This document shows, one piece after another, positions 3,001-33,309 of a stretch of 64,000 nt of DNA; the first letter of the stretch is position 1, and each line of letters starts with the position of its first letter. The notes below the pieces were generated by a model. It saw only the letters and a program-made list of their open reading frames with translations. It was not told the DNA's origin and searched no databases. This DNA comes from Parabacteroides goldsteinii. GTDB lineage: Bacteria; Bacillota_I; Bacilli_A; RFN20; CAG-826. The DNA is taken from the NCBI GenBank assembly GCA_963632335.1, contig CAVGUA010000109.1:21982-85981 (forward strand), written 5' to 3'. Position numbers and translations under genes: made by a program.

Positions 3001-6000
3001 AAAGTATTCATTTATTTTTGCTTTAATTTCAGCGTTTTCAAACAAATGTATAAGATCTAATTTATTAGAAATATCAATTGTTTTGATAATATTTTGATTT
3101 TCATCAGTAAACTAAAGACGCCCTAAAACCATCTGTTTTGTAGTTTCTCTAATCCATGATTCAGACACATCACTCCAACCCGGGTTTTTGTCTTTACCAT
3201 TTAAAATTTGTTCAAGCTTTTTCAATTCATTTTTGCCTTCAACATTTGACAAGTCAATTTCAAATTGACTATCAATTAAGGATTTTAGAATTTCAATATT
3301 TTGCAGCTGCCAAAATTTAGTATCCGTCTAAAAATCATGCATCTAAACAGATTGTGTGCCATCAAATTCTATTGAAGCGTTATCAATTTCAGTCCTAAAC
3401 TGATCATTTGATGAAAAACGATATGCATTGCCTACAATTGTTCTATTCCAAGCAAGGCCTTTTATTTTTGTATATGTTGTGTTTTGATTTTCATCAATCG
3501 TCTGTACAATTCTATTTTCAGAACCATAATATACCTAGTCAATTAGAGAAAATAAATTTGTTGGATGTGCAAGATTATAATCCTTGACTATTTCTTTTAA
3601 TACACTTTCTGCACTTCTATTGCTCCCGAATTTTCTAAAAACTAAAGCATTAAAAGATCTAAAATTATCATTAAGAGGGTTGTCTATTTTTGCGAATTCA
3701 CCCCATTTCGCATCATTTTTAAATGAGCTAAACAAATTTGCAAAGTCTGTTTTTATTGTATTAAATACCTTTAAATAATAATTGCCAATTTCTGTTTTAA
3801 TAGCACTACATAGTTCATTAATAGTGCATTTATATGCCTCTTTGTTTTCTTTTGGTAATTTTAATATCTTATTTAAATCAATAATTAGTTTTGCAATTGT
3901 AGTTTTATCTGCATTTACGGATGGTAATATTGCTATTTTTCTGTTACCGACGAGTGCGGAACTTGCAACATCATCGCCCTATAAAAAACCTCCAATAAAA
4001 TCATACAAAAAGTTTGAGTAGTTATACTCGTTTACATTGAAATCAGTTGCCTTTTTAGATGTTTCTCCATTATAGTACTCTTGAATGGTATACATTCCAT
4101 TATACAAATCAAATAAACTAAAATTTTCAGCAGGAGTATCTTTACCGCAAAGCAAAGTCCATTGGTCTCTAAGTTTACCATAAAGCCTACTTGCTGAAAC
4201 GGTTGTTAAAGTACTATAATCACTCATTTTGACGCTTCTAGAAGAAAGTAAATTTTCTCTATCAAGCAAGAAAAAAGCAATATCATTTTCAAGCAAACCA
4301 GCTTTGTTCATACAAACATCAAAACCGTCAATATTATCAAGATATGCTGGTTTATATTCGTCACCGAAAAAACTTAATATTTTGCTTTTTTGAACATAAG
4401 GAGTGACCTATGTGCCATTAGTAAAATAGTTTTGAATAGCAATTACTTTTAATGCATGCATTGCATACATAAATAATGATTGACTAGCATTAGATGATAT
4501 TCGCTGTATAAAATTATTTTCAAATTCATTTGTGCTTAAATTTATTCCAAGAACATCATTTATAAAGCATACAATACTTTTTGCATTATTTTTAAAAAAA
4601 TCAGCTTTTACATTTATTTTATCATTTGATCCAATTATAATATTATTGTTTTCATCAAGTTGTATAGAAACAGTTTTTTTAGTGTTATCTATTTGAATAT
4701 TGTATTTATCTTTTAATAAAAGATATTCAGATAAACAATTTTTGTTATTAAATTTTTCTCTTATTTCTCTAACTTTATTTGATACAGCATTTGATGATAT
4801 TTCTTGAAGTATTGTTTTGCCTTGATAATCTGTATAATATTGACAATGCCTGACCGAAACTAAAGAATTAAAACTTTCACACAAATCTTCAAAATAATTT
4901 TTATTTCTATTTGTTATGTCGTTTTGTATGACATTTATGGTATAGGAATTTATATAGTCAGTAAAAGCGTATCTAACAGATTCGTTACCGTTAAATATGT
5001 ATTTATTTAACGAATTTAATGTATCGTTTACTGACTAGTCAAAATTTTTAATATTTAACTATTGGAAAATTTGATTTCTGACGTTTTTTGTTCCAATTAA
5101 ATCAAATAGAATCGGAAAATATTTTTGTGGATTCCTTGTCGCCTCTGAATAAAGCCTGCTAAATGTAAAATTGTTTGCATTTGAATTTTTGATATTACTA
5201 TCATTTGCTAAATAATCATTTAGCTCTAAAAATGTTTCGTTACCATTTTGGTCTATCAATACGGAATCTTGTCCAAAAAGCCACTTGATTGTATCTGCAT
5301 TTAAATCTTTTAATAATGTATAAAAATCAGCTTCAATACCTTGAAAAATATCCTCAAATACATTAAACAAACTTTTGTGGTTTAAATTATTATTCTAAAA
5401 CAATAAACGTATTGATTCAACAGCGGCGCATACATCATCCATTTTTAAGTATTTATTGTATTCAGATGTATATTGACTTTCTTTTGGCGTCATTTCAAGC
5501 ATTATCTTTACGCTTATGTCTGTTTCATCCATGAAATTTACATCATTATCACTAGTTCGCCATGTATCTATAATCGCATTTGATTTTTTTATTACAGAAT
5601 ATTGCTTGTTATTAAAGCTGCCATCTGTTATAGTGCCATGTTGAATTTTATTTGGCAAAACAATTTCAAGCAGACTGTCAAAATGAGTAAGCAAATGCCA
5701 TGCTACATAAGCATCATATTTTTGACTGTCTTGGCTTTTCCATAGCATTGGCTCGCCAACTTTTGCAACACCATTGCTTGCTAAGTCATCATTAAACAAA
5801 GTATTAATTGCCTTGCTATATTTTTGCATCACATTAGTATATGTATCTTCATCATATAAACGTTCAAGCATTACATCAGTATAGTTACTTTTTAAAAAAG
5901 TAACTACTTTTTGCCAAAGATTTTGTTGGTAGTTTTTTATTCTATCTGTCACTTCAGAATTATCTTCAACTCGTTTTGCAAAGCCATTTTCCCTATAAAC

Positions 6001-6480
6001 AAAGAAACATTCTCCTAATGCAAACTTCACGTCGTTTAGTATCACTGTTTGTTCTTCTGACATACCAACCAGAATGTCAGCCAAGAAATTTTTGTCAAAG
6101 TTTGTATTTAACGTTTTTGAATCAGAAATGTCATCAAGCACCTCCAATTTTTCTTTAGGTGCATTGGCTTCTTTATTTTGTTGTATAGCCTAATCACAAA
6201 GTTTTTTTATTTGTTCAGTAGTTGGGAAATGCTCTTGATAAAAAGCACTCCAATCGTCACCTGCCTTAATTACATTGTTTAAATCCTGCTCATACGATGA
6301 ATAAAACGTACCTGGATCAACAATTGCATCTGGTCTTGTTAATTCATTTTGTATTAAATTTTTATACGCAGAATAAAACATTTTTTTTGCTTCGTCTTTC
6401 GACACCTCATTGTTTTCAATATATGTAAAAACTTCAGTTAAGCCGTCAAAATCAAGAGTATTCAGTTTTATGCAATTCAT
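1..6480 (-). CDS. Giant virion/ejected-type protein, first 2,160 codons (3' end lies beyond window start); function unassigned
   Basis: Nine track fragments (793, 1627, 2056, 3535, 3979, 4408, 5059, 5395, 6190) share one frame and each ends in TAG. I read every gap triplet by triplet and found no TAA/TGA from 1 to 6480. The ATG at 6478-6480 follows the terminator T-run; the alternative ATG at 6493-6495 sits inside the hairpin. Confidence 0.8.
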
Positions 6481-6490
6481 ATATAAAAAA

Positions 6491-6522
6491 ATCATTGCCA
6501 ACAGACGTCTGTTGGCAATGAT
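6491..6522 (-). terminator. Rho-independent terminator after the 3,657-aa gene
   Basis: Perfect palindrome atcattgccaacagac/gtctgttggcaatgat about 27 nt past the TAA at 6550. On the minus strand it is followed by a T-run (plus A-run 6485-6491). Confidence 0.7.
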
Positions 6523-6549: not shown

Positions 6550-9500
6550 TTAAGAACCAAAAAAATCATTAATGGCCCGACTGCCTAAATAACAACTGTC
6601 TTTATTATTTTTCTCAGTCGATTCAGTATCTGATTTACTCTATTCAGTACCTGGCCTTTTACTAGACGGAAGCGTTACTGTCTGCTTAGTCTATTCAGTA
6701 CCTGGTATAACATTTTGTTCAGGATTATTGTTAAGTAACACATCGTTTGACGTATAAATAAAAACAATATTTCCTTCATCCGTCTTAACAAAATCACAAT
6801 CTAACTAAACTTCTTTCCCCTTTATTATTACTTTAATATTGCTACCGTTTTGTTTTAAATTATAATGATTATTTGTTTTTTTTGCCGTACCGCTAATTTC
6901 AACATCAGCAGGAAGCTTAACTATTTCAGATCCATTATCATATTTTAATGACATAACAAATAGTTCTTTCCCGTGCGTTACTAGTTTTGTGTCCTTATTT
7001 AATTCATTATATTTTATTACTAAATCTTTAGTTGTTTTTAAATTTAAACCTTGCAGATATGTTATTTCATCAGACGTTATATCTAATTTTTTATTCAACA
7101 AAATTTCCCTAAAATTTTTAGATAAAACAGCTTCTTTATTTAATGCATTTTTAGCATATCTATATTTTGTTGAATTAGATGAACGCGTCCACGAATTACC
7201 ATTTGATTGTATAATGGTATGCGTCTTTTGCTTACCTTCATCTGTTATATCAGTTTCTTTGTATGTCTGTATATCAAACAGTTCTTCACAAGCATCAATA
7301 TTTATTTGGAACAAAGGACTATTTATTTCTCCTAACATCATAAAAGACTATCCGTCAACTTGAAATCTATTATTGGCATCAACACTAACATAGAAGAAAT
7401 CATTATTGTTTTCCAATACATTTTTAGAAGTATCAGCTTTGCATCTTATTGATATATATTGTATTTTATTTTTTTGTAACGAATCAACAATAAGCTATAG
7501 ATTGTTTGATGTTTTATGAGGGATTCCTTCAATAATATTTGTTGTACCATCATGTTTTAAAAGATCTGTTTCTTCAGTTAAAAACCAATCAAATCCTTCA
7601 TTTTTTATTTTAAGCGTATCCGAATAATAAACTAAGTTTAAAAGAAGTAGTCTAAAAATCTTATAAGTATCTACAGTTGATTTTAAACCTAAAAAGTCAA
7701 ACAAATCCGTTTCTTCTTGCGATGTTAACACGACAGATAAAGCTTCATTATAAGTTTTTAAATCATCTCTTTCTTTTAACAGCGCATTTGCTTTTTGTTC
7801 GATTTTGTTTAAAAGCTCTTTTACAAGATTTATTTTATACTCACTTATTCCGTCAGAATTACAATTTGGGTCTACTTTCTGTGGATTCTATATTGCTTCT
7901 AAAAAACTTTCATCGCCCCATAATGTTTTTATTAAATGATATGCAGTGTATTTTGTGCCATAAAAAACATTGCTATTCTTTTTTTCTTTTATTGTTTTAT
8001 ACAATAATTCAATATATGCGTCAAAGTTTGTTTTAAAAGCTTCATTCTGCTATTGCATATCCATTTTTGACATATCAGCAATTGGAGAGTGTAATAAGAC
8101 AATAGAAACGCTTTTAACCATTTTAGGATTTTCTTGTTGTTTAATAAATATATTTAACAACTCTGCGGAAGAAGCGTTGCGTAAATTCGGATTCTAAGTA
8201 ACAAGAATAAACGGAGTATGATCAGGTATATTAATATCTCCAACTTTACCATTTGTACTTTTTAGACCACCAATCATAATATTTGAAACTGCCTCAAAAT
8301 TTTTAAATGTCTCATCACTTATCTCTTTTACTGTTGGGAAATAATCATTTTGAACATTATTCGTTATGCTAGTTCTTGCTTTTGAAACTACATAGCTTCC
8401 TATTGAGTGGCCATTGTTTTCATATGGACTAAACTTTTTTAATTCTATAACATAAGCTCCACCTTTGATATAGAATTTAATTAACTTGCGCAAGTTATTT
8501 AAATACTTTAAATCAGGAGTATCTAAATTTTTATTAGCCAAGAAATTATCAAGTAGTCCTACTACTTGCTATAACTTTTTTAAATCAATTTTTCCAAACC
8601 AAATTTTTTGTAACTAATCACTAAAAGATTTTAAATCACCAGTAAATTCATTTTTAAATTCATAAATTTCTGCAATTAAACTAAATGGAGACCTCAAGGT
8701 AAATATAGGTAATTCCAAAATATCACCGTCTGATTTTGTGCCAATTACAAGACTGATTGTTTTTTTTAATACACCATCTTTTTCTTCGGTTTTTCTTACA
8801 TTTAATACCTAATCATATTCTTCGCATAATAAAGTTTTTGATTCAAATGATTTTAAATCATTTGATTTTTTACTATTTACACTATCAATATATTTTTCTT
8901 TAGTGCTTACAACGTTACATGATTTAAATATCCAAGAGACTTCAAAGTCAACATTTGAAATATCAAAATCAAAGTATTTATTAAATGTTGCACTTAACCT
9001 TCTTAATAAATTTTTTTGACTTGTTGCGAACAATACATCTGAACGAAGCTAATTTAAAATTTCTAAGTATATAACTTTTTCGGTTCTCCCATTATTAACA
9101 TCTATTCCATCTTTTAATTTCCATCCTCTCTATTCTATTAGTTTTTTTAGTCCATTAACAGAATCTATACGAAAGTTCACATCCTAATCCAACATTTCAA
9201 CATTACCATTGTTGTCAAATTTAACACCTGGCACTAATGTTGTTTGTGTATAAACGGTCATAAAATTATTTTTTAACCCACCACCATGATCTTGATTTAA
9301 AAATTCATCAAAATGTGGCTACTCTAATGGTGCAAACTATATAGTAACATCATTTACTTCTTCATCATTTAGAGTGCCTGTATCAATTAAAGTTTCAGGC
9401 ACAATTGTTTTTTCAGAACCTTCTTCCAATAAATTATCAAGAAGTTTGCTTCCTTTAGATTGTGAAGTCTGAGTAGTGGTTGTTTGTGGTGGCGTCGGCT

Positions 9501-12500
9501 AAGAAGTATCTACAACATCTTTTAGCTACGGTTGATTTATAAACGAGCTAATAGTGTTCAACAATGCATCAGGAATGTATAAATTATTATTTTTTGCACT
9601 TTGCCTTATGTCATCAATGGTAATAGTTTCATTATTATCTATCTTTGGCTAAAGTTCATTTATTATTTTATCAAGCTGCTCAACTGTTATTGTACTTTCC
9701 TCTTTTGTCGCATCGGTTTGCTAATTTGGATATGCTAAAAGTGAATCATCAACCATTTTCTTATATTCACTGACACTCATAGTCTCTTCAGTTGTTTTCC
9801 CGTCATGAACTTTTTCAAATGAAACGTTTTGTATATTACCATTATTATCTTTTTGCAAACCTGTAATATAATAAAAATCATACTATGAGCCATCTTCTGT
9901 TAAAAGCTTAAATGTACACCCAAGCCCAAAACCTTGATTTATATTATATGGGTATTTATATAATTGCTGATTTTGCTCATCAATAATTTTTTGTTCTGGC
10001 AATTTACTTTCAAGTTTTTTTATTTCATCTAAAATCTTATTTCTATTTTCTTGATTTTTTTTGTTTAAAAACGAAACCAGATCATCTTTTGTTTCTATTT
10101 TTTTTGCTTCTAATTCAATTCCTAAATCAGTTTTGGTTGGAGCTTTATATGTTATTTTTTCTGGATCGTGTATAGCGACTTCATATTGGCGTTGTTTATA
10201 AGCATTATAACTGTCTATAGCTTTTTGTGATATTGTTTCTATAACAGAAAATTTATCAGGAGACTTGCAATTTTTTATTTGAAAAGTCGAATGGTCTGCA
10301 ATTATCAATGTTGCCTAAACTCCTCTAGTTGCATTGGTATAAAAGTCTTTAATATTTGTTTGTTTGAGATTTTCTTTTTGGCGCAAAATAAAAAATCTCA
10401 TTTCTAAACCCTGAGCTTTTTTATTTTTATTAAAAATTTCTACCTTGTCTTCAAATCCTTTATTTACTATATATTGATATATTTCATCATTATTACTCTC
10501 TATGTACAATCCGATTTTTTGATTTTCTTCTAATTTGTTAAGCATATCATCTATTTCGGATTGCCATGCTTTTATTTCATCTTTATATAATATTCTATGC
10601 CCTCGTAGTTCGCCATTTTCTGTTTTAAAATAATGAAGTTCACTTTCGATTTTTTCATTGCCTAATAAAAATTTGGTAGTAATATCATTTAATATACTAT
10701 TATTAGTTATTACTTGTGTATTGCCAGATCTTAAAACAACACCCTATTTGGGAGTTGTTATAAACATATTAGGAAGTAAATTTAATACCACTTCAAAATT
10801 TGAACTAGATTTAACTACTTTTGTGCTTTGATTGAAATCGCCAGAACAAATCATTGAAATATTTTTTTGATTACAAAAATTATTTAAAGTAGCTATTTCA
10901 GGATTTGTTGCATTTGTTACCTCATCAAAAACAATCAATGAATAATCATTTGTATTTGCATTTAAATTATAATCTATATAAGTAATACCGCTCTTTGTTT
11001 TTTTAGGCTTTTTGTCAATTAAATTGTTTTTATCTTCCTTTGTATTTTTATATTCTTCACTAATTTCATCAACAAAATCAGCATAGTATTTTACGTTTTC
11101 TTTTGGAACATTAAAACTTTTTTGCAAAGATTCTTTTAAACCATCCGAATTAACACCAGAAAGAACAAGAATTTTAGAAGATAATTTTGGATTAATTTGA
11201 GTAGCTATTTTAATAGCATTTTTAATTATCACACTTGTTTTACCAGTTCCTGCAAGACCTTGTATAAGAATACTATTCTCAAAAAAAGGTAATTCGATAT
11301 GATCAATTAAATCAGTATTTTTTATTTTACCTTTATCAAACCTTTCCTTTAAAACTTTTATATAATCTGGGTTAAAGTTGTATTTTTTTGTAAAGTCTTC
11401 AAGTTGATTTGTTGTTTCAATATTTTTTAATTCTTTTAAAATTGTCAACTATAAAGCCTTAATAACATTTTTTGTTACATCGCCATTAACCAAATGAGAT
11501 ACTGCGTGATGAATGGCAATCTATTGTGAATTAATCTCAATAATTTTGCCATCGCTTGTTTTTTGGCATAAATCATAGAAACTAGATGTTTTTACACCGA
11601 TCCAACTGCTAAGTTCCGCTAAAAAGTTTTTGTCGTCAATATCCTATGTTGTTTCATTTAATTCAAAATTATTACCTCTGAAATTTGCTAACTATGAAAA
11701 TACATCAGTATTAAAATATTTCTATAGCCTTTCAACAGAAGTGTCATCTTTGAATAAATCATAAAACGCATCTTTTATTGCGACAATCTCTTCAAACATT
11801 TTATTCTCAACATCAGGAGGGAGTGTTAAAGCTCTATCTTTAACATCTGCTTTATAATAACTTTCTAATGTTTTGGCACTTATAACTGCAGCAATTATAG
11901 TTTTATTTATTTTTTCTACCTCATCATTGTCACTATTCTACAAAAAAACAGTGCGAATATTTTCTGCAAAATTTTTAATTCTGTTATAAACAATATACTA
12001 ATAATTTAATTGCGCTTTTTTAGTTGATAAAATTTTCTTTTTGTTGTTTACGTCAAATAAAGTTTTATAATGCTCTAAAGTTGCTAAAAGTTTATTAATG
12101 TCTGTCAATAAAACATTTCCAGAGTTGCTATCGATAACCAATAAGTCCTCCCATCCTTCTAAATTGACTTTTTTTGCCACGGCATTTATTGTTGCATTAA
12201 AACATGATAATTTACTTAAGCTCAAATCATCATTAACTGCACAGGCAACAATAGATCGTAATGATTTTAAATGACTAATTAAATCTGTCAACTACTAATA
12301 ATCTGCATAGTCGAAATTATATTTAGTTAAATCAGTTTTATTGGCATTACTTTTATCTTTTATTGAATAAATTGGTACTGTTTGATTGAAAATTTTTTCA
12401 AATTTATCCAACAAATCATTAACTGAGAAAGTCTAATTAGTTTCGTTGTTTATAAACTATTGTAAAAGACTTACAATTGGAGTATCAGATAATTTTGCTA

Positions 12501-15500
12501 TCTCACTTTCTTCATTATCAAAATTGTTTAGTTGATTTATATTTTTAGCATCATTTTGATAGTTTTTGTAATCATTCCTAAGATTAGCATCTAAAAAATC
12601 AAAATTAGTCAGGTTATTGTGTTTTAAAATACGATCTTCAAATGATTTATAAGTTATATCGCTATCTTCATCAGAGAAAATATATAAACCTTCAATTTGA
12701 TTTAATTGATATAGATTATTATTACTTTCATCAAGATACTCAAAACGAGATGCAAAATCAATTATTGTGTTTTTTAATTCTGGTGTTACATTGTTAAACA
12801 AATCCTCTAAAAGAGGGTTGATTTCATTTATGTCATTATTTAGGTCATTTTCTTGCTCTTTAATAAATTCTTCAAAAAGTTTTTTATTTTTTAAAACAAA
12901 AAGCAAAAAGTATTCATTAACCTATTCTTTTATATTGTTTAAATCTTCTGATATTCTTAAACATTCTGTATCATTTTCTATTTTTTCTTTGTCTATTTTA
13001 GTTAATTCATTTATTTTTTTCTTATCAAAGAAAATATCTATTAACTGCTAGTCTGAATAATTTTCATATTCTTTTTTTCCTGCCTTATCCAAAAGGTATC
13101 TTAAATCAACAATATTTATAGACTAAATAATATCTTCTTTCTTTTTAGAAAGTTCTTGATTGAAAACACTATTAAATTTATCGACAAAATTATTTAATCT
13201 TTTTTTGTTTATATCTATAATATATGCTTTAAGAACGCTTGTATCCGCAGTAGCTTGCAACCGATCAGCTAACTAGTTTAAAATTACGTCATTAATAACA
13301 GAGCTATAATTGTTTTTTGCATTCCTATAAATAGAGATTAACTATAAAAGCATTGTTTTCGTTTGTACATCACACATTCCTTTTATTAAAATACCATTAG
13401 ATACAACCTCTTCAAGTAAAGTTTTGAAATCTAATATAATTTCTTTTTGCATGTCTTTAATTGCGAGATTTACTTTTAGGATTGTGTTTTGAAAATCTTC
13501 TTTTATTTTGTCTTTCAATGCTTCGTTTAACTAGCTTATAATATCTTCTTTATTTTCATTAAATGCCTATTCTAACTTTTCTGAATTTTCTTTTAAGTTG
13601 CTTAATTGATTTTTTATATCTTCTAGTTCAGTTTTTTCAGCATCTGTAAGCTAATCAATTTTTTGCTCTAATTCACCTTGCCTTGTATATATTGCACTTG
13701 TAAAATCATTTAAATTTTTTATAAATAAATTAATTTTGCGTCTACTTTTTTTATTTAATTTATTTATTTCATGTAATAGTACAGAAGCAGCATTATTTTT
13801 TTCTTTCGACGCCTCGTATTTATCTATTGCATCCTAAAATCTTTGTCTAATTTCCTGCCATGATTTTCTAAAATTTTCAACAAGCGAACTATTAGCAATA
13901 GAAGGATTATTATTTACATTGTCTAAATATGTATTAATAATTCCATCTAATAAGCTGTTTTTTTGAGTTTGATTCTAAATAGTACTATTTAAAAGTGCAT
14001 TTGCCTACTATGTTAGACCATAAAGTATTACATCAGAAGCTTTGACATTTTTTGCATCCTTGAAGTTTTCAATAGAATCTTTAAAAAGTTTTTTAAAACT
14101 ATTTAGACTTGATATTAACTTATTAAGTTTTTCACTTTTGTTTTTTATCCTGTCACTCTATTTATTAAAGCCAATACTTTCTGCAAGTTCATAAACTAAT
14201 TGAGCAAGTTGTTTGGTGTAAACAAAACCATTTTCATCGGCTACAATTGAACCAAATACTTCATTTGCATCCTCGCTATATGTGTCCTATTGCATTTCAA
14301 TCCAACGCTCGTAAAAACTTTTGTCACCCTTAGTTCTGTTTGCATGGTTCCGCATTTGGTTTATGCGGAATAAACCAATTATGTCATTTATTTTTTGTAT
14401 ATTGATATTATCGTTTCGCAAAAGATAATTTTGTATAGTTTCTTTTAAGTATGCAGAACTGTTTCGACCATGCTCTAAATACCATTTTGATAAAGCATCA
14501 GCCGCTAATGCTTTATCCATTTGATTGAATGCTTCATATTCTTTTTTCAGCTTTTCAATGGTATCATTGTCTATTTCATTATATTTTTTATGAGTTACCG
14601 CTGCACAATATGTTTCAAATGTGGGTGGAATCATATTTTGATTAATACCAGGCGTCATCTCTACAAGTGCGGCAGCGATCATTTCAGGCGCACGTTTCCC
14701 TGACAAAATATCATCCTTTAACTAAATCTTTTCGTTAAGCTATTCTTGAATTTTTTCTATTTCTTTTTGTTTGATTACATCATTACTTTCATTACTATTT
14801 GTTTCTTTAGCTTCTTTTTTTGCTGCTATTTTTTGAGAATCAGTCATCTCAGAGCCGTCAATATTTTGTGTTTTTACACCTTTTGCCTCATTTAAAGCAA
14901 GACTTAATTTAACAATGTCATTTGCAACGATATTAAATGCCTGTACACTATTACCAATAGTAGCTGATTCTGATAATACACCAAGTCTAAATTCTTTTAA
15001 TAAATCAGCATGCAAGCCCATTAAAGAATCATCAGAAACTTTTGCTCCATTTGCATCTGCAGCTCTTTCGATTAAGTCGATCTAATCAAACAATGCTTTT
15101 TTACATGCATAATCCTAAGAATCATAATAGTCTTTTGCAACATCATACGATTCTGTACCAGGAACAATTCTCGTTGAAAGATTCCTAGATGCAAGTGTCA
15201 TATGTTTATTTATATAATCCTTATACTCAGCGGTCTAATTGTTTCGAACAATATAAACCAGCTATTTCATTGCTTCATCAAAACTATTTACACTTTGCTG
15301 TTTTACGGCTTTATAATTAGTGAATGCGCTATTAACACCTCCACCGACTATACCAGCAAACATACCCATTCCGTACCTGTCAAATTTGTTTTCAAAGGCA
15401 CCTATTCTCTCGTCAGAACCTACAAAATAGTTTTTAGCATTCCATGCGGATTTTGTTAAATCATTAAACAATTCCTCAATGTCATTTACAACGCCAGCTT

Positions 15501-17523
15501 CAAGACCTCCAGCAAAAGAAGCGTTAAATGTTAATCCTACTGTATTTCCCTTAAGCTAACCAGCTGCAGCCTTATCAGGAAGAGACTTGAAGAAATTTAA
15601 TACCTTTTTAAAATAATTCTGCTTTTCAATAGAAGACGCATCAACTGCTGGTCTTGGTGTTAACTTTATTTGATTCATCACTGTTCTAGTGAATGCATTT
15701 GCCGATTCACCTTCTGCTGTTTTAGCATTCATTGCTGCCCTTGCTGTATTTCGCCATTGCAACTTATTAATACGCATTTCTGGCAAAAAGAAATCACCAA
15801 TTGGTGTGTTTAACAAAGCCATTTCTGCGGCAAAACGAGCGAATGTAAAAATACTAGCATCCACGTCGTCAGCACCTGCAAGTTTTAATTCTCCATACAT
15901 TGGGCTTGCCATCAATCCTGCCATGTATACTTTAGATGCTACTTCGCCAATTTTATTATAGCCTTGCATATAAGCAGCAAAATCAGCCATTCCCTGCATA
16001 TTTGCTGCTTTCTCTAAGAACTATGCATCTGCTACACTTTGCATTGTGAATTGTCCTTCCTGTTCAGTGATGCCAGCTTTTATTGCTCTTTTTTTAGCTA
16101 ATTGATTTGCTTGTGTTGTTAATAATTCTTTTCTTTTCCTGATAAGTTCTTGTTGAAATTTTATTTGTTTTCCCTCGTCAAATCCCCAATCAATACTGCT
16201 TTTTAATTTATTGCCTTTAAAAACAGCAGGAAGCCATTCAAACAATATTCGCTATTCTCTTATCTGAGCAAGTAAATCAGCACATGTTGAAAACCAACTT
16301 TCAAAACACCAAGTATGAGTTTTTGCATACTCAGTTCTAAGGGTCTGCCTATTCCATGACTAGGCAAATCCTTCTATACTATTCAATATAGGACTATCGC
16401 TCCCAGTAATCATTTTCCCTGCAATGCTAAATAATCCCCCTAACTATGTCAACAAACTTGCTCCTGTAATAACAGGTCCAATATATGGGATGAACATTGC
16501 GCCAATAAGCACTGCATTTTTTGCAACAGTACCAATCATTGATTTTTGATTAATATCATCACTATCAAATGGGTCAAATTGGTTTATCCAAGAGCCATCT
16601 GTTGTTATCGTATTGAATTTATTTAACACAACCTTACCATCAACAGAACGTCCATTTAATTCTTCATAATAAAACGTTCCATTGTCATTAGTTTTGTATT
16701 GTCCTTTTTTATAAACTATTTTATCTTCATCTTCTGTTGGATTTCCGTTTTCATCGGCATTAAATTCCCATTGAGCTAAAACACGAGTGTCAAATATATG
16801 GGCAAAAAATGATTCGTCGTTTGGCGATTCATTCCAAGTATCTGTAGCAGGGTCGTAAATTTTTTGGGTTTGTGCAATTTCTTCATCAGACAATTGCCTT
16901 GGACCCATTTGCCCAATTGTTGTTAGTGAATTATTTTGCCGATATGGATTGTAAACAACTTGAAGTTTTTTATTGTTTGGATCATCCCAATCAACTTTTT
17001 GTTCATCAGGAGCATATATATTATTGGGGTCATACACAAATTGTTGCTGCATATCATACGAATCTGCAATCTCAACAATCCCATCACGAAGTATTTTTGC
17101 ACTGTCGTAAACTTCAGAAAAAGCTTTTTCGTTAAATTCTCCGTTCTAATCAGTAAAGGCTTTTTTTACAAGATCGTTACTTAAGTAACTATCTTTTGAT
17201 TTCAGTGTTACATTATTAGCAGTATAACCAACATCCAAAAAATCCTGCATTGAGTATGTAGGGTTTGTTATGATATTTAAAAACATATCATGTGTTTTTT
17301 CAGTTGGTTTAGGATTGTCAATTGACGGACTTTGTACATTATTTAATTTTGAAAAAAGTTCATCATAATTGGTATGATCCTCAAAATCATTTTCTAAAGA
17401 ACTATTAGGTACAGACACTCCAGAGGTCTCATTTGAAACCTCTGGAGTGTTTTCCTGTACAGCTGTATTTTCAATTTCTTGTGATACTTCACTCGTATTT
17501 TCAGCCATATTTAACATTTTCAT
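6550..17523 (-). CDS. Giant 3,657-aa protein with embedded RecD/Dda-like SF1 helicase core; probable virion/ejected protein
   Basis: Fourteen fragments (6805 to 17146) share one frame and all end in TAG. All gaps were checked and hold no TAA/TGA. The first real stop is TAA 6550-6552. The ATG at 17521-17523 overlaps the upstream TAA (TAATG). Helicase motifs: GLAGTGKT (~11236-11259), VFDEV (~10920), SGDFNQ (~10840), KAQGLE (~10411). The N-terminal third has hydrophobic Gly/Ala-rich stretches. Confidence 0.8.
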
Positions 17524-19463
17524 TATTCTGGAGCTTCAACATATTCAGCTCTTTTTGGTTTTATATTTTGTTCTTTTCTGTATAATTCATTTACTAAAGA
17601 ACCTGGTATTTGAACGCCACTCGCCGTAGCGGATAATAAGAAGCTTGATTCAACAGGAATAAATATAAGGCCTTCATAAGCATCGTCTGCTCCAATCCAA
17701 CTGTCAACGTCAATCTTATATTTCTTCTTTTCGTTTTCAGAAGCATTCCTCCCTAAGATTCTAGATATTTGTTCTGCTGATGACTAATCATTGCTGCCTA
17801 ATTTCTTTAAATGCACTGTTGCATCCGCTGCATCTTCTCCGCCATCAAATGCTTCTGCCTTAGCCGCGCCTTGTATTACCGCAAAGCGTTTGTATGCATA
17901 GTCATTAACAAGACCATCCTCTCTAAGATAAACTTGCAAACCAGCACTTCTAAATGCATCATTGACTTCTTGAATCATTTGTTTTTTCTTTGATTCACTT
18001 GTCTTATCATCAACATTTAATTCATGACCCTTTAATAAACCTCTAGAACGAAGGTCATCTTTAACCGCTTCTATCTCGCCAAGAAACTCAAGATTTGGTT
18101 TAACAGCTTGTGTATTTTCATCAAGAGTGCTTGGTAAATATACTAATGAAACTTTCCCGTCAGTACTACATGCCATATCTAGATTTTTGATTCTCTATCC
18201 GCCCATGTATATACTATTAAAATCAAGTAATGCTGCAATATCGGTTTCTGTCATGTCATACAATGAACAAGCACCATAATTCTTGTCGTTCTTTGTTATA
18301 GGAGCAGTGTAAAATCTAGCTGTAAACGCATCAGATGTTCCTGCAAATATTGTTATATCACGCCTTGGAACATTTCCTGTTTCAAGAAGCATCAAAGTAC
18401 TGTTCTTTAAATCTAATAATTTATCAGATTTTGACGAACCTTTCTTGCTGTTGTCAGCAGTATCAGCTTCAAGATCAGCTTCAATATTATAATCTTGCGT
18501 AAGCCTACTTAATAACAACTATGAAACTAATTCCAATGCTTCTTTTTCAGAACCTTCTTCACACTTTGTTTTTAATAATGTTTTAGCATTTTGTGGAAGA
18601 GTTTTCCAAATATAATTAAGGGAACGCACTATTTGACCATAATTATCCTTGGTAATAAGTTTTGCCTTGTACAAACCGTCAACTGTCATTAACTCTTCAA
18701 GACCGCCAGGAACTGAATTCGGGTCTTCTTTAACCATCTGTACTGCTTTGTTATAAGCTTCCTTTAGATAATCTATTCCAATCCTATTTTGCTTGTCAAT
18801 ATATCCTTCTTGAGAAGTACTAGTGGCCCCAATATTTTTTGCGCTGTTTTCAATTAAGTCTGTCGCCTCTTTAATTCCAATGCCATTAGAAACAAACTAT
18901 AAAACTTTATCGTTAAACGCAAAATCATCATTTTCAGCCCTACTAACAAGAACGTCATTGTTAGTGACAAGACTTACTTTATCCCTATATTTTGCATATT
19001 CTTCTGGCCTCATCCAAGCCTAATTGCCTTTTGCGTCCATTACTAATACCGCACCTGAATCAGATATAACAGCTTCATACATTCCTCCTGTTTTTTCAAC
19101 TTGGTCAGCTGCTTTTTTATATGCCTCCTTAGACTATGTTGCGCTTCCCATTTGTGACAGAATAGATAAATATACCTACTATGCATGAGACTAATCAATA
19201 GTGCCATTTCCATAAGCATCAGCATAATAAAATAACTATTCAACAGATTCAAGCATTTTTCTTTTGTCATTTGGCAATCCGTCAACTTTTTCGATTAGTG
19301 TAGCAAAATCCTTGAAATTCAAACCGTCATCATCATCTTTTTCGGTCTTTTTTTCTTCTCTTTTTGCCTCTGGCTTCTGTGGCGTATAGTTATATTCAGC
19401 ATTTGTATAGGTGGTCCAAACTGGACCACCATTATCAAATATATTTATAAAACTGTTTTGCAT
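17523..19463 (-). CDS. 646-aa structural-module protein, unknown function
   Basis: Fragments 17784, 18195, 18519 and 19236 share one frame and end in TAG. Gaps were checked. TAA at 17523-17525, ATG at 19461-19463, 3 nt after the upstream TAA. Confidence 0.8.
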
Positions 19464-19466
19464 GTT

Positions 19467-22400
19467 TTAATTTTTTAAAAATCTCTAAAGATATACTAAA
19501 GCATTACTTCTTATTGAAAGTTTAGTTGCCTCTAATGCGCCTCCATTTTTATATGTTGGTTCAGTCGTCCACTTAGTATTTAAATATTTAGAGATACTTC
19601 CTGCTTGCGGTGCACCCCATGTACTAAATCCATTTGGGTTTGCTATATGTTGTAAATATGACTACAAATAATCATTTTGTTTGTTTTGATACGTTGCTGC
19701 TGCTAAAGTATACGCATTCGTAAGATCTTGCAGCTATTTTTCTTTTTTCTATTGTGCAGCCTTTATTTGAATTGTATCACCATTAGCCTTATTATATGCG
19801 TCTTGATATTCTTGTTGTATTGTTACCTTGCCTTTGGTTAAAGCAATCTAAGCTTTATTGACTGCATCTTTCAATTCTTTACCTTCCTTTGTTGTATCAA
19901 ACTGTCCAACAGCAGCCTTGAGTGCATTATCGCGATCTTCTGTGTGGTACGCATTAAGTCTTGTTATCAAGTTCTTTGCATACTAACTAATCTTATTTGT
20001 GCTTTCTTTTGTATAATTAGCATCAATCTAATTGTTATAGTTATTAATTTTTGAACGAAGCTCATTATTTTCGTCAGCAACTTTTGTCCTTTCTGCTGCG
20101 TTTTTATAAGCCGTTTGTAATGCAGCCTATTTTTGTTCTTCGTCATTGGCTGCAATTTTTAAATTAACATTATTCCTTGCTGATTCTATTTGCTAATCTG
20201 CCATAAGGTCAGCAACAAGACCTGTCGCGGCGTCCGCAGTATTGCGTTTGTAATTATATGCAGAATTTCGATAAGTCTATCCAGCGTTATTTAATGTCTA
20301 AATTAAAGCACTTGGTGTTGAAATTCTTGTTTGCATCTAAGCAGGAGCCTGCTTGGGTGTATATTCAATTTTGCTTAAATTCCTGATTTTGTTATCAGCA
20401 TTTAATTGCAAACCAAGCATTGCCGCATTCGCACCCTCAGTTGCTTGCCTTAAATAATCATACGATTTAACAGGAGGAGTAACAACATTTTGTGGTTTAG
20501 TTGCCGATGCCTTTTGTAGCATTTCCGCTAATATGTCTTGCTGATTGCTGTATTCGTCAGTCTTTAAAAGACCATTATTAACGGCACCAATATGCTATAA
20601 AACACTTTGCAGCTCATCGTTTTTCAACCCACCTTCTATTGTATCTGTTTGATTATTCCAAGAACCGATAAGCCTTTCAATGTCATCATATATCTTTTTT
20701 TGCCTTTTTGGTGTATCAAAATCATAAGTTCCATCAGTATTTTGGGTGGCAAAATCATTCCAATCATAAACATTCTTATCGTTACTTAAAGCGTCAATAA
20801 TATTCTATCTAGCATAATAAAAATCAGTTGAAGAGGCTGCGTTTTTTGCTGCGTTTATCTAATCAGTTGTAATTAGCCCAGATTCAATAGCTTTATTTAA
20901 ATAATTATTCTGTGGAACAAATTCTGAACCTTTTTGCCAATTGTCTTTTTCGTTATTGACATTTAAATCAGATTCATTTAAATAAGATGGCCCGTCAGGA
21001 TTTGAAGAATAATAGCGTCCTTTTATCCTTAATGATTTTTCATTAAAAGTAACACCAGCTTTAGTTAAATCGTCTCCTTTAAGAACTCTATCATCTTTTA
21101 TATAATTGCCATCAGAATCTTTTGTGTATATATTATAAGTATCACCGTCCTTGTATAAATGCTAATCCTCATTCAATCCTAATTCCAATCTTTGCTTGTC
21201 AGTTAATATTAATTCATCCCTATCTTGTTTGTTTAAAGTTTCTAACATTCCATTGACATATCGATAATACTGATTTGCATTGACTTGGTCGTTTTGTAAA
21301 TCGAGTGCCTTGTCATATCTGCTCCGATCGTATGTATACACTCGTTCAAGTTGATTCCCTTTTCTTTGATACCTATTACCATTTACATTCATTTCACTCC
21401 CTTCATCTCCGACGTCAACCCAATTGTACTCATATATTCCATCTTTATTTTTTTGACCAACAAGATATTTTAATTTCCCGTCATTCTAATCAAAACTCAA
21501 TTTATAAGTTTGTTGATTAGGATCATATCCAACAATTGCCTTTTTTAAATCGTCTAAATTCCAAGTAATATAATTTCCATTATTGTCAATTTTTCCAAAT
21601 TCAATGTCTGAATTTGCCCTTTGATAATTTTCAGTATATTTTCCTAAGTTATTTTTAAAGGAATGGATTATATCATAAGCTGTTTCATAATTATTAGCCT
21701 GATCGCCAAAAATTGACTAAAATTGTTTATTTCTGAATACACCAACTTTTTTAGGGTTTATAATTGTGCCATCATCAGCAGTCCAATTGCCATCAGAATT
21801 TATTCTTATTGTATTTCCTGCTTTATCAGTTATAGTAAATGTTTCAGTATCCTTGTCAAAATTTAGTTTTAACTATGACGGAAGCCCTGCTCGATAATCG
21901 TATATATTGCCATTATGATAATTGTATAAAATAGAATTTGAAAAATTCTACCATAGCGGATTAGTGCTTAAAAAATTGTTTGAATTATTTTCGTTCCCTT
22001 CCTGAATTTGCATTCCAGTTTGTCCATACCCAATCATTCGGGAAGAATATGATCGGGCTTGACTAAAAGGGGTGAGTTTGCCTCCATATTTATTAGTTGT
22101 AGTTGTACCTGTATTTGCATTTGTAGTTTGTTTTTTGTTGTTGAAATTTTCATACAACACTTTTGCCTAATCATAGCTCATGCCCGTTTGAAGTCTAAAA
22201 AACATTCTTTCAACAAAACTACTTTCTAAATTTGGTTTTTGTTTTTCAAATTCTTTTGCAGCAGAAGCATTAAACGCATATCCTTTTAAATTTTTGTCAT
22301 ATTCTAAATTATTAAACCCAATATTGAATTTATTTTTTAAATTATACCACTTTCCATTTGGGTCTTTATATGACATTCCATCTATTTGAAAATTGTTGAC

Positions 22401-24923: not shown

Positions 24924-24954
24924 AATATATTATATTTTATATTTTTTTTGTGTG

Positions 24955-25275
24955 TTAATAACTAAAATTATTGTAGTTATTTTGTAATATAGATGTATTA
25001 TTAAAAATCTACCTATTTATATTGTTTTGCAATTTTGCGTACTATTTCGCTTTTTCAAACATCTCTACACGCTAATCCTCTTTTTGTTTAATTAAACTTT
25101 TTGCATTTAAACCACTAGTAATTCCGTTTATAATACTGCTGCCAATTTTTAAAAAATTACCACCAAATGTACTTTGATTATTCTGTTCCTTTTTTCTTGA
25201 CTAAAGTTTGTCTGATATATTATCAAACGGGTTTGTCACACTTAAATATGGTTTTTTTGAAGATAAATATTCCAT
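24955..25275 (-). CDS. 106-aa hypothetical protein
   Basis: ATG at 25273-25275, 1 nt after the upstream TAA. Four in-frame TAG, then TAA at 24955-24957. It fills what would otherwise be a 350-nt gap. Confidence 0.6.
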
Positions 25276-25276
25276 T

Positions 25277-26491: not shown

Positions 26492-26510
26492 GCTAACATT
26501 AATAAAAATT

Positions 26511-26548: not shown

Positions 26549-26580
26549 AATTAAGTATTTTTAATCGTTTATTAAATCCA

Positions 26581-32500: not shown

Positions 32501-33309
32501 TTTGTCAAAACAGTGCTATCAGAAAAATCATCAGTGGCATCACCTGCAGGAGTGCTGTATTTATAATTGCTTACAATAAATTTTGTATCAACGTTTTTAT
32601 ATTCTGTTTTTAAAACAGAAACTAGTTTTATGTCGAGACTGCCAACGTTACTTATCAAACCTGTTGCATTGATAAATACTATATTATCGGTATAATCAAT
32701 TGTTTTACCTGAACTGTCTTTTGTTGGCAGTTCATCTTTAGAACCAGATAACGACATTGCAAGTTGTCTACAGAGTTCCTACACTGAACCGCAATTAGAA
32801 AAACATGAAGAAACAGGAATGTTTTTTAAATCTATTTCTGTCTCACCATCACTCCAAGTTGTGTTATTGACGTAATATTTTACATTTGTTGTTTCTGAAT
32901 TACTATCAGCTTCTACACTACTGACTTTAGATGTTGTGACAAGAGGTCCAATAGTTTTCTATTGAGAATCAAAACTAATGCTTGTTATACCTGAAAAACC
33001 AAGATTCTCTAAAAGGGTTTTAAATGAACGAGAAAGCTAAACAGAATAAGTTACTTTACTGATTGTTGTTACTTGTTTGGTTATTGAACTAGAAGCCGCT
33101 TCAATTAAACCTGCCTCTAGCACATTGTTAATAGCACCGTTATTCCAAATGACAACATTAGTCAATATATTCCTATCTGCAGACAAATAGTTGCCTTCGG
33201 AATCCTTTAAATACTAATTACCTTTTCTAAAATTATATAATGGATTGTACTCCCAGGCCATTGACCCTTTATTTTTTATACATTGTGTTGCGTATTTTAT
33301 TCGCGTCAT
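26581..33309 (-). CDS. 2,242-aa tail-associated protein with an internal 87-aa Ala/Gly/Val/Thr hydrophobic segment
   Basis: Fragments 26581 (TAA), 27742, 28570, 29146, 30469, 31009, 31648 and 32179 share one frame; all but the first end in TAG. Every gap was checked. The ATG at 33307-33309 is 2 nt after the upstream TAA. Confidence 0.8.

What the first reader, a model, noticed from the sequence alone, without database searches (positions are those of the whole stretch)
6550..17523. Single 3,657-codon ORF in the virion module carrying a RecD/Dda-like helicase core
Seen: one uninterrupted frame of 10,974 nt (TAG read as sense), translationally coupled to its upstream neighbour (TAATG at 17521-17525) and followed by a strong terminator. 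Its middle contains an ordered SF1 motif set:
- Walker A GLAGTGKT (~11236-11259);
- Walker B VFDEV (~10920);
- GDFNQ (~10840);
- KAQGLE (~10411).
The N-terminal third looks like an ejection/tape-measure protein (Gly/Ala-rich hydrophobic stretches). The C-terminus carries PGTEQ repeats.
Established: crAss-like phages package giant cargo proteins, including a virion RNA polymerase.
Inference: a helicase fused into a presumptive ejected protein is unusual. It could act on the genome during or just after ejection.
Basis: partly seen in the sequence, partly recalled or inferred. Interest (0 to 1): 0.8.

Follow-up and report, generated by a model that had tools for sequence, protein, structure and literature searches.

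The report
Giant crAss-like cargo protein with helicase
A real 3,657-residue, TAG-recoded gene of a Zeta-type crAss-like gut phage carries an intact SF1B helicase and always sits directly upstream of the virion RNA polymerase gene, so it is probably an injected helper of early transcription; databases already label relatives "RecD-like" but nobody has studied them.

Summary
Window 17523-6550 (- strand) is one 3,657-codon frame with 60 in-frame TAG and no TAA or TGA. TAG reads as Gln. Relatives in standard, TAG-sense and TGA-sense codes keep an intact 2,650-3,640-aa ORF.

Its catalytic residues are invariant in 57/57 family members. An AlphaFold model of the 80%-identical ortholog (pLDDT 83.5) matches SF1B helicases such as RecD, nsP2, nsp13, Dda and Upf1.

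The phage is a deep-branching crAss-like phage, Zeta-type by gene order. The gene follows the muzzle gene and four smaller ORFs. It immediately precedes the giant virion RNA polymerase gene, and this pairing holds in 34/36 IMG/VR loci.

Best reading: a virion-delivered cargo protein whose helicase serves the co-injected RNA polymerase, probably by unwinding entering DNA. The characterised crAss-like polymerase prefers single-stranded templates. Packaging and activity are inferred, not shown.

It is not a tape measure, a true RecD or the phage's Dda-type helicase. A relative is listed as "RecD-like protein" in a 2025 supplementary table and in UniProt, so this is a new member of a known but uncharacterised kind.

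The parts
6550..17523 (-). Giant ORF: 3,657 codons, 416.8 kDa, pI 5.2, 60 TAG read as Gln, stop TAA at 6550-6552.
   Evidence: Orthologs intact in three genetic codes.
17299..17523 (-). aa 1-75: acidic, low-complexity N-terminal extension absent from most homologues. The true start could be M1 (TAATG-coupled), M6 or M80.
14404..17298 (-). aa 76-1040: N-terminal module, the best conserved part. It is 29-35% identical to homologues from other clusters, and Ka/Ks is 0.05. Function unknown.
16402..16539 (-). aa 329-374: Gly-rich hydrophobic segment (KD peak 1.78 at aa 336-358) followed by a W..E..GD-type motif. This is the stretch that aligns weakly with the N-terminus of crAss001 gp47.
12574..14403 (-). 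aa 1041-1650: variable, AT-rich Lys/Asn/Glu-rich spacer, coiled-coil-like. It is mostly an insertion relative to homologues. Ka/Ks is 0.44.
11287..12573 (-). aa 1651-2079: conserved region preceding the helicase core.
10264..11286 (-). aa 2080-2420: SF1B helicase core with two RecA-like domains.
11236..11259 (-). Motif I / Walker A, GLAGTGKT. G, G, G and K are invariant in 57/57.
10918..10932 (-). Motif II / Walker B, VFDEV. D-E is invariant in 57/57.
10828..10842 (-). Motif III, GDFNQ. G, D and Q are invariant in 57/57.
10723..10737 (-). Motif IV region, VLRSG. The Arg is invariant in 57/57.
10402..10419 (-). Motif V, KAQGLE. G is 57/57, E is 56/57, Q is 52/57.
10321..10341 (-). Motif VI, YTNATRG. 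T and the Arg finger are invariant in 57/57.
7294..9273 (-). aa 2751-3410: conserved C-terminal module of unknown fold, with no Pfam, PHROG or PDB match.
6553..7293 (-). aa 3411-3657: variable tail. It holds two PGTEQ repeats (6640-6705) and the family-wide lone Cys near the C-terminus (aa 3644, 6592-6594).
6481..6522 (-). Terminator-like hairpin (14-bp stem) plus T-run between the giant ORF and the next ORF. The stem is identical in the closest relative.
1..6480 (-). N-terminal 2,160 aa of the virion RNA polymerase gene, which runs off the window. It is 86% identical to a 3,947-aa ORF whose GSDFDID catalytic motif lies at aa 2381, just beyond the window.
17523..19463 (-). Upstream 646-aa ORF, translationally coupled to the giant ORF. 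It is syntenic with a 615-aa ORF of MT835470 and sits in the position of cargo protein C2.
19467..24923 (-). 1,818-aa ORF with Gly/Ala-rich hydrophobic stretches, a candidate channel-forming cargo protein.
26581..33309 (-). Crassvirus muzzle protein, which anchors the block to the crAss-type tail.
   Evidence: PF25731, E 4.7e-36, 124.8 bits

Best explanation
The ORF encodes a ~417-kDa multidomain protein of a Zeta-type crAss-like phage. It is made late, together with the virion proteins. By analogy with crAss001 gp47, gp49 and gp50, it is packed into the capsid as cargo and expelled into the host with the DNA.

Its middle is an active SF1B ATP-dependent helicase/translocase. The gene is always paired with the giant virion RNA polymerase gene immediately downstream. 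I therefore propose that the helicase is the unwinding subunit of the injected early-transcription machinery. It would open or strip the entering duplex so that the virion polymerase has a single-stranded template, or clear proteins and RNA-DNA hybrids for it. The characterised crAss-like polymerase transcribes single-stranded or denatured DNA well and native duplex poorly.

The conserved N-terminal module, with its hydrophobic Gly-rich segment, would dock the protein in the ejection channel or membrane. The C-terminal Cys-containing tail may be a packaging or anchoring signal.

Shown:
- The ORF is real.
- The domain has the SF1B fold.
- The catalytic motifs are conserved.
- The domain is under purifying selection.
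- Synteny with the muzzle and polymerase genes is conserved.

Inferred:
- Virion packaging and ejection.
- ATPase and helicase activity.
- The substrate.
- Coupling to the polymerase.
For: ORF reality:
-. Of the 36 IMG/VR loci, 17 are standard-code, 18 TAG-sense and 1 TGA-sense; their helicase-bearing ORFs are 2,650-3,240 aa, except one cut short by a contig end. The closest relative P0001 is 3,638 aa.

Helicase identity:
- Pfam AAA_30 in 19/19 family segments, AAA_19 in 18/19, Viral_helicase1 in 10/19, UvrD_C_2 in 7/19.
- Family profile against PDB sequences: nsp13 and Upf1 at 1e-7, RecD weaker.
- AF2 model of the ortholog segment: pLDDT 83.5, pTM 0.81.
- Foldseek hits at probability 1.0: RecD, CHIKV nsP2 helicase, nsp13, SLFN11, Dda, RecD2, Upf1, Ighmbp2, Sen1.
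- All catalytic residues of motifs I, II, III, IV and VI invariant in 57/57, and motif V nearly so.
- Ka/Ks of 0.13 for the helicase against the closest ortholog.

Context:
- Muzzle protein PF25731 at 26581-33309.
- The downstream ORF is 86% identical to an ORF carrying QIWLQGSDFDID.
- A polymerase homologue directly follows the giant ORF in 34/36 IMG/VR loci, and the GSD[FY]DID motif is seen in the 9 loci whose flanks reach it.
- All genes in the block use the late-gene TAG recoding.

Literature:
- crAss001 virions contain gp45 and gp46 cargo plus the giant polymerase-associated gp47, gp49 and gp50 (PMC10172136).
- phi14:2 gp66 polymerase transcribes ssDNA and denatured DNA but not native dsDNA. 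Its eukaryotic relative QDE-1 needs the helicase QDE-3 and RPA (bioRxiv 10.1101/2020.03.07.982082).

Independent association:
- In cr118_1 gp14 (4,946 aa), the GSDFDID polymerase motif is fused in one ORF to a canonical Dda-like helicase.

Weak links to crAss001 gp47:
- hhalign probability 60%, E 8.8e-5.
- A shared near-C-terminal Cys.
Against: - There are no proteomic data for this clade. Packaging rests on gene position and weak similarity only.
- HMM searches find no similarity to crAss001 gp44-50.
- crAss001 shows no helicase in the part of the block that I scanned. A helicase is therefore not a universal requirement of crAss-type virion polymerases.
- SF1B enzymes need a single-stranded 5' tail to load, and none is known at the entering genome end.
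- A 340-residue RecA-fold motor would have to unfold and refold to pass a channel narrower than 50 A.
- The window protein's own AAA_30 score (26.2 bits) is just below Pfam's cut-off of 27.
- A conserved terminator-like hairpin separates the two genes here. This argues against strict co-translation stoichiometry.
Confidence: 0.45

Rival explanations
1. Genome-internalisation motor. The N-terminal module anchors the ejected protein in the envelope channel. The SF1B motor translocates along the incoming DNA and pulls the 100-190-kb genome into the cell, as transcription does for T7 and N4. This could coexist with the transcription role.
For: - A conserved hydrophobic segment lies in the most conserved module.
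- The gene lies directly after candidate channel-forming cargo genes.
- Genomes of this clade are large, with contigs up to 190 kb.
- The ATPase motifs are intact.
Against: - SF1B helicases track single-stranded DNA 5'->3' and are not known as duplex pumps.
- The strict pairing with the polymerase gene and the cr118_1 fusion point to polymerase-linked function.
- No TM-helix bundle is seen. Only one segment passes a hydrophobicity threshold.
Confidence: 0.2
2. Injected anti-defence factor. Like P1 DarB, a giant capsid-packaged protein with a helicase domain travels with the DNA. It would protect the DNA from restriction or from RecBCD/AddAB-type nucleases, for example by stripping or out-competing host enzymes at the DNA end.
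For: - The best structural match is RecD inside RecBCD.
- The size and the presumed packaging resemble DarB (my own knowledge of P1 Dar, not tested here).
- The variable spacer and tail evolve fast, with Ka/Ks of 0.32-0.44.
Against: - No methyltransferase or other anti-restriction domain is found.
- The helicase and N-module are under strong purifying selection rather than arms-race diversification.
- The protein is conserved across the whole clade with fixed synteny to the polymerase, unlike accessory anti-defence genes.
Confidence: 0.12
3. Not a virion protein. It is a late-expressed intracellular helicase used for replication, recombination or genome packaging, and it merely lies at the end of the structural operon.
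For: - No direct evidence of packaging exists.
- Helicases are normally replication-module genes.
- There is no detectable sequence similarity to the crAss001 cargo proteins in HMM searches.
Against: - A relative has a separate canonical Dda-like helicase 50 kb away (MT835470 3315-4664).
- Embedding in a ~3,000-aa protein between muzzle, cargo and polymerase genes is conserved in every locus.
- The 60 TAG codons mean it can only be made late, which is too late for replication initiation in the same cycle.
Confidence: 0.12
4. A helicase-derived domain that has lost unwinding activity and serves only as a structural or nucleotide-binding module of a scaffold-like internal protein.
For: - The core is very divergent from characterised helicases, with 10-15% identity to PDB hits.
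- It is sub-threshold in Pfam for this sequence.
Against: - Every catalytic residue is invariant in 57/57 sequences at 21-26% overall identity: Walker A Lys, Walker B Asp-Glu, motif III Gln, motif IV Arg and motif VI Arg.
Confidence: 0.06

Closest known systems
'RecD-like protein' of Zeta crAss-like phages: Lera phage ORF191, 8,346 nt (Babkin et al. 2025, PMC12386605, Table S1), and UniProt A0A8S5RTY8 'RecD-like protein [Siphoviridae sp. gcode 4]'
   Same: - Lera has the same gene order: muzzle, smaller ORFs, a ~630-aa ORF, a ~2,800-aa RecD-like protein, then the polymerase ORFs.
- It is stop-codon recoded.
- A0A8S5RTY8 is the best structural match in BFVD, with E 3e-16 and TMq 0.65.
- This is almost certainly the same family.
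   Different: Family membership therefore rests on synteny and size for Lera, and on fold match for the UniProt entry.
- The window protein is the largest version, because of a ~600-aa spacer insertion.
- The published work gives only the label, with no analysis of the domain or of its link to the polymerase.
crAss001 gp47 (with gp49 and gp50): giant 'RNA polymerase-associated' virion cargo proteins
   Same: - Same position downstream of the muzzle and cargo C1/C2 genes.
- Giant size.
- A lone Cys near the C-terminus.
- Weak profile-profile match of the N-terminal hydrophobic motif.
   Different: - No helicase domain is detectable in crAss001 gp44-gp49 or in the C-terminal 1,503 aa of gp50.
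- Homology is not established, at 60% probability.
- gp47 packaging is shown by mass spectrometry; packaging of this protein is not.
cr118_1 (Suoliviridae) gp14, 4,946 aa, annotated 'exonuclease V' / 'DNA helicase'
   Same: - An SF1B helicase is physically linked to the crAss-type virion polymerase, in the same block after the muzzle-like gene.
   Different: - There the helicase is a canonical Dda-type domain (GDKAQLQPV, HKSQGS) fused to the C-terminus of the polymerase polypeptide itself.
- Here it is a divergent SF1B core inside a separate protein upstream of the polymerase.
- The two helicases are only distantly related, with HMM E 7.6e-7.
SF1B helicases RecD/RecD2, T4 Dda, Upf1-like, nidovirus nsp13, alphavirus nsP2
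   Same: - Ordered motifs I-VI.
- Two RecA-like domains.
- Foldseek probability 1.0.
   Different: - 10-15% identity.
- It lacks the Dda/RecD signatures QLxPV and HKSQGS.
- It is embedded in a 417-kDa protein.
- Polarity and substrate are unknown.
Phage P1 DarB (capsid-packaged giant antirestriction protein with helicase motifs); poxvirus core NPH-I, NPH-II and A18 helicases packaged with the virion RNA polymerase
   Same: - The concept of a helicase delivered inside the virion with the genome.
- For poxviruses, it is delivered together with a virion polymerase for early transcription (my own knowledge).
   Different: - Those are SF2 enzymes in unrelated viruses.
- There is no sequence or domain-architecture relationship.
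- These are analogies only.

Membership tests
Superfamily 1B helicases | Walker A (motif I) GxxGxGK[ST] and Walker B (motif II) DE | tested here: met
   GLAGTGKT at aa 2089-2096 and VFDEV at aa 2198-2202. Invariant in 57/57 family members.
Superfamily 1B helicases | Motifs III (GDxxQ), IV (Arg), V (QGxE) and VI (TxxxR Arg finger), in order | tested here: met
   GDFNQ, VLRSG, KAQGLE and YTNATRG are present in order. Key residues are 56-57/57 conserved.
Superfamily 1B helicases | Two tandem RecA-like domains with an SF1 fold | tested here: met
   The AF2 model of the ~89%-identical ortholog segment (87% in phmmer) has pLDDT 83.5. Foldseek gives probability 1.0 to RecD, nsP2h, nsp13, Dda, RecD2 and Upf1, with TM about 0.45-0.49. 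The window's own sequence could not be folded with an alignment because of tool restrictions.
Superfamily 1B helicases | Curated Pfam threshold for an SF1 family model | tested here: inconclusive
   The window protein scores 26.2 bits on AAA_30 against a cut-off of 27. The ortholog segment scores 28.0 bits, and 19/19 family members match, best 1.8e-10.
Superfamily 1B helicases | Nucleic-acid-dependent ATPase with 5'->3' unwinding | not testable with these tools
   Needs biochemistry.
RecD (exonuclease V alpha subunit) | Match to the RecD equivalog model, and partnership with RecB and RecC | tested here: not met
   TIGR01447 matches only 2/19 members, at 1e-4. There are no RecB or RecC genes in the block. 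The 'RecD-like' label describes the fold class only.
Phage Dda-like helicases | Signatures GDxxQLxPV (III) and T[VI]HKSQGS (V), in a stand-alone ~450-aa replication-module protein | tested here: not met
   Motif III is GDFNQS and motif V is KAQGLE. The relative MT835470 has a separate Dda-like gene at 3315-4664, far from the giant ORF.
Crassvirales virion cargo / polymerase-associated giant proteins | Encoded in the block downstream of the muzzle and cargo genes, adjacent to the DFDxD virion polymerase | tested here: met
   Muzzle PF25731 lies at 26581-33309. The polymerase homologue lies directly downstream here and in 34/36 related loci.
Crassvirales virion cargo / polymerase-associated giant proteins | Sequence homology to crAss001 gp47, gp49 or gp50 | tested here: inconclusive
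   hmmsearch finds nothing. hhalign against the gp47 family gives probability 59.7%, E 8.8e-5 over 100 columns.
Crassvirales virion cargo / polymerase-associated giant proteins | Presence in purified virions | not testable with these tools
   Mass spectrometry exists only for crAss001 (PMC10172136).
Tail tape-measure proteins | Long-tailed virion, TMP family match, position between tail chaperones and distal tail proteins | tested here: not met
   The phage has a crAss-type muzzle. The giant ORF has no PHROG or Pfam TMP hit.
P1 DarB-like antirestriction proteins | Methyltransferase domain plus an SF2 DExH helicase | tested here: not met
   Only SF1-type domains are found across 16 full-length members.

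The most novel reading that the evidence does not exclude
The giant protein is a dedicated, virion-injected helicase subunit of the crAss-type two-barrel RNA polymerase. It would be the phage counterpart of QDE-3/RPA for QDE-1. It would melt the incoming duplex genome to create the single-stranded template that this polymerase class needs. That would explain how promoter-less early transcription starts in crAss-like phages. In lineages without it, a host or other phage helicase would substitute.
Probability: 0.3. Interest if true: 0.8.

Novelty: new member of a known kind. Interest (0 to 1): 0.55.

Why it matters
[quoted passage not shown] How their injected RNA polymerase starts transcription on duplex DNA is unresolved: the purified phi14:2 enzyme works on single-stranded or denatured DNA, and no early promoter motif is known.

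A catalytically intact helicase is genetically locked to the polymerase gene in one clade and fused to the polymerase in another phage. That gives a concrete, testable candidate for the missing template-opening activity. It also adds an ATP-driven enzyme to the list of proteins that may be threaded through a phage tail.

Practically, the result shows that a 3,657-codon TAG-recoded ORF is genuine. Standard gene callers shred it into more than 60 pieces.

Tried and rejected
- **Whole-protein word-index search:** timed out. The same search with the 481-aa helicase segment found nothing, probably because low-complexity words filled the candidate list.
- **TAG->Q sequences:** I used the TAG-free 234-aa piece for the search and the 80%-identical ortholog P0001 for the model.
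- **Single-sequence AF2 of the 234-aa piece:** useless, with pLDDT 47.5, and it cost one of two structure jobs. The N- and C-terminal modules therefore could not be modelled.
- **PHROGs:** no match for the giant ORF or for 16 relatives.
- **NCBIfam:** almost nothing.
- **PDB sequence search with the full-length profile:** hit only the helicase.
- **PDB search with the downstream ORF:** nothing.
- **megablast against GenBank phages:** no match.
- **Polymerase motif inside the giant ORF:** I looked for a DFDxD motif in the family. None is present; 'DFDIS' at aa ~2853 is not conserved.
- **Lera phage record PV725988:** not in the collection.
- **Yutin 2018:** not held. I could not check whether that paper mentions the domain.
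- **MT774391:** guessed as cr118_1, which was wrong.
- **Rejected readings:** tape measure, assembly artefact or frameshifted pseudogene, RecD ortholog, and DarB homologue.

Full report
**1. The observation**

On the minus strand, 17523 to 6550 is a single frame of 3,657 sense codons. It starts with ATG and ends with TAA (6552-6550). It contains 60 TAG and no TAA or TGA, whereas the other two frames of that strand hold 325 and 556 stops. At the off-frame TAA+TGA rate, the chance of such a run is about 1e-107. Every long ORF from 6.5 to 64 kb lies on the same strand and carries in-frame TAGs. No tRNA gene is in the window.

TAG is read as Gln:
- Against the 80%-identical ortholog, 42 TAGs are shared and 17 sites swap TAG with CAA or CAG.
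- At TAG columns, distant homologues show Gln 3.5-fold and Glu 2.7-fold above background.

The TAATG overlap with the upstream 646-aa ORF is as described. So are the 14-bp-stem hairpin plus T-run at 6522-6481 and all motif coordinates.

**2. The ORF is real, not an assembly or annotation artefact**

- The uncultured gut phage MT835470.1 uses the standard code. It has syntenic uninterrupted ORFs of 1,557, 615, 2,971 and 2,282 aa. The 2,971-aa ORF matches the giant ORF at its N-terminal third (E 7e-65) and at the helicase (E 2.5e-11).
- An exhaustive HMMER search with the TAG-free piece (aa 2026-2259) found 21 cluster representatives. Nearly all are 2,746-3,638 aa, with the match at a fixed relative position. 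P0001 is 80% identical over its full length.
- A scan of IMG/VR gave 36 loci on contigs of 75-190 kb. In all but one contig-truncated locus the helicase lies inside a 2,650-3,240-aa ORF: 17 in the standard code, 18 with TAG as sense and 1 with TGA as sense.
- Ka/Ks against the closest ortholog is 0.21 overall, 0.05 for the N-module, 0.13 for the helicase and 0.44 for the spacer.

**3. The helicase**

- The window protein scores just under Pfam's AAA_30 cut-off: 26.2 against 27 bits, E 7.8e-6, aa 2086-2238.
- The family as a whole is unambiguous. AAA_30 matches 19/19 segments (best 1.8e-10), AAA_19 18/19, Viral_helicase1 10/19 and UvrD_C_2 7/19.
- A profile of 19 segments hits MERS and SARS-CoV-2 nsp13 and Upf1/NAM7 in PDB sequences at about 1e-7, and RecD more weakly.
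- An AlphaFold2 model of the ortholog segment built with that alignment has pLDDT 83.5 and pTM 0.81.
- Foldseek matches the model at probability 1.0 to RecD, chikungunya nsP2 helicase, nsp13, SLFN11, Dda, RecD2, Upf1, Ighmbp2 and Sen1. All of these belong to the SF1B/Upf1-like class.
- Across 57 giant proteins, the following are invariant: Walker A G-x-x-G-x-G-K-[ST], Walker B D-E, motif III G-D-x-x-Q, the motif IV Arg, the motif V Gly, and motif VI T...R. The motif V Glu is conserved in 56/57.

At 21-26% pairwise identity, this is the signature of a working ATPase. The subfamily and the substrate (DNA or RNA) cannot be resolved.

It is not a RecD ortholog. It is also not the phage's Dda-type helicase. 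The Dda signatures are absent, and MT835470 encodes a separate Dda-like gene about 50 kb away.

**4. Architecture**

| Residues | Feature |
|---|---|
| 1-75 | Lineage-specific acidic extension |
| 76-1040 | Most conserved module, with many invariant polar residues and a Gly-rich hydrophobic segment (aa 336-358) |
| 1041-1650 | AT-rich, coiled-coil-like variable spacer, which accounts for the extra length here |
| 1651-2079 | Conserved pre-helicase region |
| 2080-2420 | Helicase core |
| 2421-2750 | Linker |
| 2751-3410 | Conserved C-terminal module |
| 3411-3657 | Variable tail with two PGTEQ repeats and a lone Cys 14 residues from the end |

Only the helicase matches anything in Pfam, PHROGs, NCBIfam or PDB.

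**5. Context**

- The portal is 54% identical to that of MT835470 and about 22% identical to Crassvirales portals.
- Window 26581-33309 encodes the crassvirus muzzle protein (PF25731, 124.8 bits).
- A PD-(D/E)XK nuclease sits in the structural block. This is a crAss-like hallmark according to Yutin et al. 2021.

The order of transcription is: muzzle (2,242 aa), 404 aa, 106 aa, 1,818 aa, 646 aa, the 3,657-aa helicase protein, then a further giant ORF that leaves the window after 2,160 aa.

That last ORF is 86% identical to a 3,947-aa ORF on the relative's contig. The relative's ORF carries QIWLQGSDFDIDAASL at residue 2381. This is the DFDxD catalytic motif of crAss-type virion RNA polymerases (abstract).

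A polymerase homologue follows the giant ORF directly in 34/36 IMG/VR loci. The motif itself is visible in the nine loci whose flanks reach far enough.

The same order and sizes appear in the published annotation of the Zeta crAss-like phage Lera. There the ~2,780-aa protein is called 'RecD-like protein'. In MT835470 the polymerase motif is interrupted mid-motif, as Yutin et al. describe for the Zeta group. I therefore place the phage in or near the Zeta group.

**6. Mechanism**

[quoted passage not shown] They are thought to be expelled partly unfolded ahead of or with the DNA. The helicase protein occupies the gp47 position. It shares a weak N-terminal motif with the gp47 family (hhalign 60%, E 8.8e-5) and a near-C-terminal lone Cys. 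It can only be translated late, because of its 60 TAGs. Packaging is thus a reasonable inference, but it is unproven.

The phi14:2 virion polymerase transcribes single-stranded and denatured DNA efficiently and native duplex poorly. No promoter motif is known for it. Its eukaryotic structural relative QDE-1 needs the helicase QDE-3 and RPA.

Two observations argue that the helicase works with the polymerase:
- The invariant pairing of a catalytically intact SF1B helicase with this polymerase.
- The independent in-frame fusion of a canonical Dda-type helicase to the polymerase polypeptide in cr118_1 gp14.

Most simply, the helicase would open the entering duplex. My confidence is about 0.45.

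Alternatives are set out with their evidence in the rival list:
- a DNA-internalisation motor
- an injected anti-defence factor
- a non-packaged late helicase
- an inactive domain

The first of these is compatible with the main model.

**7. Novelty**

- The family exists in public databases under fold-level labels: 'RecD-like protein', 'Helicase' and 'exonuclease V'.
- The searchable literature does not discuss it. No paper holds crAss-like + RecD + RNA polymerase. The Lera paper mentions only that TGA disrupts 'helicase'.
- I could not read Yutin 2018 or see Fig. 3 of Yutin 2021, which may show the domain.

This is therefore a new member of a known but uncharacterised kind. What is new here is the evidence that the domain is catalytically conserved, universally paired with the virion polymerase, and distinct from the replicative Dda-type helicase.

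Noticed in passing
window 56010-58090 (- strand): The major capsid protein gene is split. Its N-terminal part is 57098-58090 (phrog_11589). It is followed by a group I intron (Rfam RF00028, 56922-57131, 52.5 bits) carrying a GIY-YIG homing endonuclease ORF (56010-56924). The C-terminal exon should lie around 55.4-56.0 kb.
   Followed up: partly
window 1-6480 (- strand); L003 20989-30917: The gene downstream of the finding is the giant virion RNA polymerase, ~3,950 aa in the relative. Its GSDFDID catalytic motif lies about 700 nt beyond the window's start.
   Followed up: yes
window 6592-6594 (Cys 3644); family C-termini: Nearly every member of the helicase-giant family ends with a lone Cys 2-15 residues from the C-terminus, often C-P-x-x-I-K-I-K-L. 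crAss001 gp47 and its homologues (..IKNCR, ..LRCNS), crAss001 gp50 and cr118_1 gp14 do the same. gp44, gp45, gp46 and gp49 do not. This may be a packaging or anchoring signal of giant cargo proteins.
   Followed up: partly
L044 (NC_055872.1, cr118_1) 16381-31221: This single 4,946-aa ORF, annotated 'exonuclease V', carries the polymerase motif GSDFDID at aa 3209 and a textbook Dda-like SF1B helicase at aa ~4460-4930. Other crAss-like phages have this helicase as a stand-alone ~460-aa replication gene.
   Followed up: partly
window 6481-6522 (- strand); L003 ~20940-20985: The terminator-like hairpin between the helicase gene and the polymerase gene has an identical stem in the relative, although the flanking sequence differs. 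Most other family loci have the two ORFs abutting with no spacer. It may be an attenuator or processing site that sets the ratio of the two proteins.
   Followed up: partly
window 38624-39454 (+ strand): This is the only convincing plus-strand gene, a PD-(D/E)XK nuclease (PF12705, E 3.9e-7). It lies where the GC skew flips sign (38-40 kb). It matches the 'PDDEXK_a in the structural block' hallmark of crAss-like phages.
   Followed up: partly
L001 (MT835470.1) ~23200-23270: The 2,282-aa polymerase ORF of the standard-code relative ends ...QTWLQGSDY|RLNLP. The catalytic DxDxD motif is broken in mid-motif, presumably by an intron or intein, as reported for Zeta-group phages.
   Followed up: no
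window 10000-14000: G+C drops to 24-26% here, against 29-34% on either side. The low region coincides with the variable Lys/Asn-rich spacer and the helicase part of the ORF.
   Followed up: no
window 44197-46737 (- strand): An 846-aa protein has long collagen-like G-x-x repeats (GATGAKGDQGIQGEKGATGAKG...). It is probably a tail fibre.
   Followed up: no
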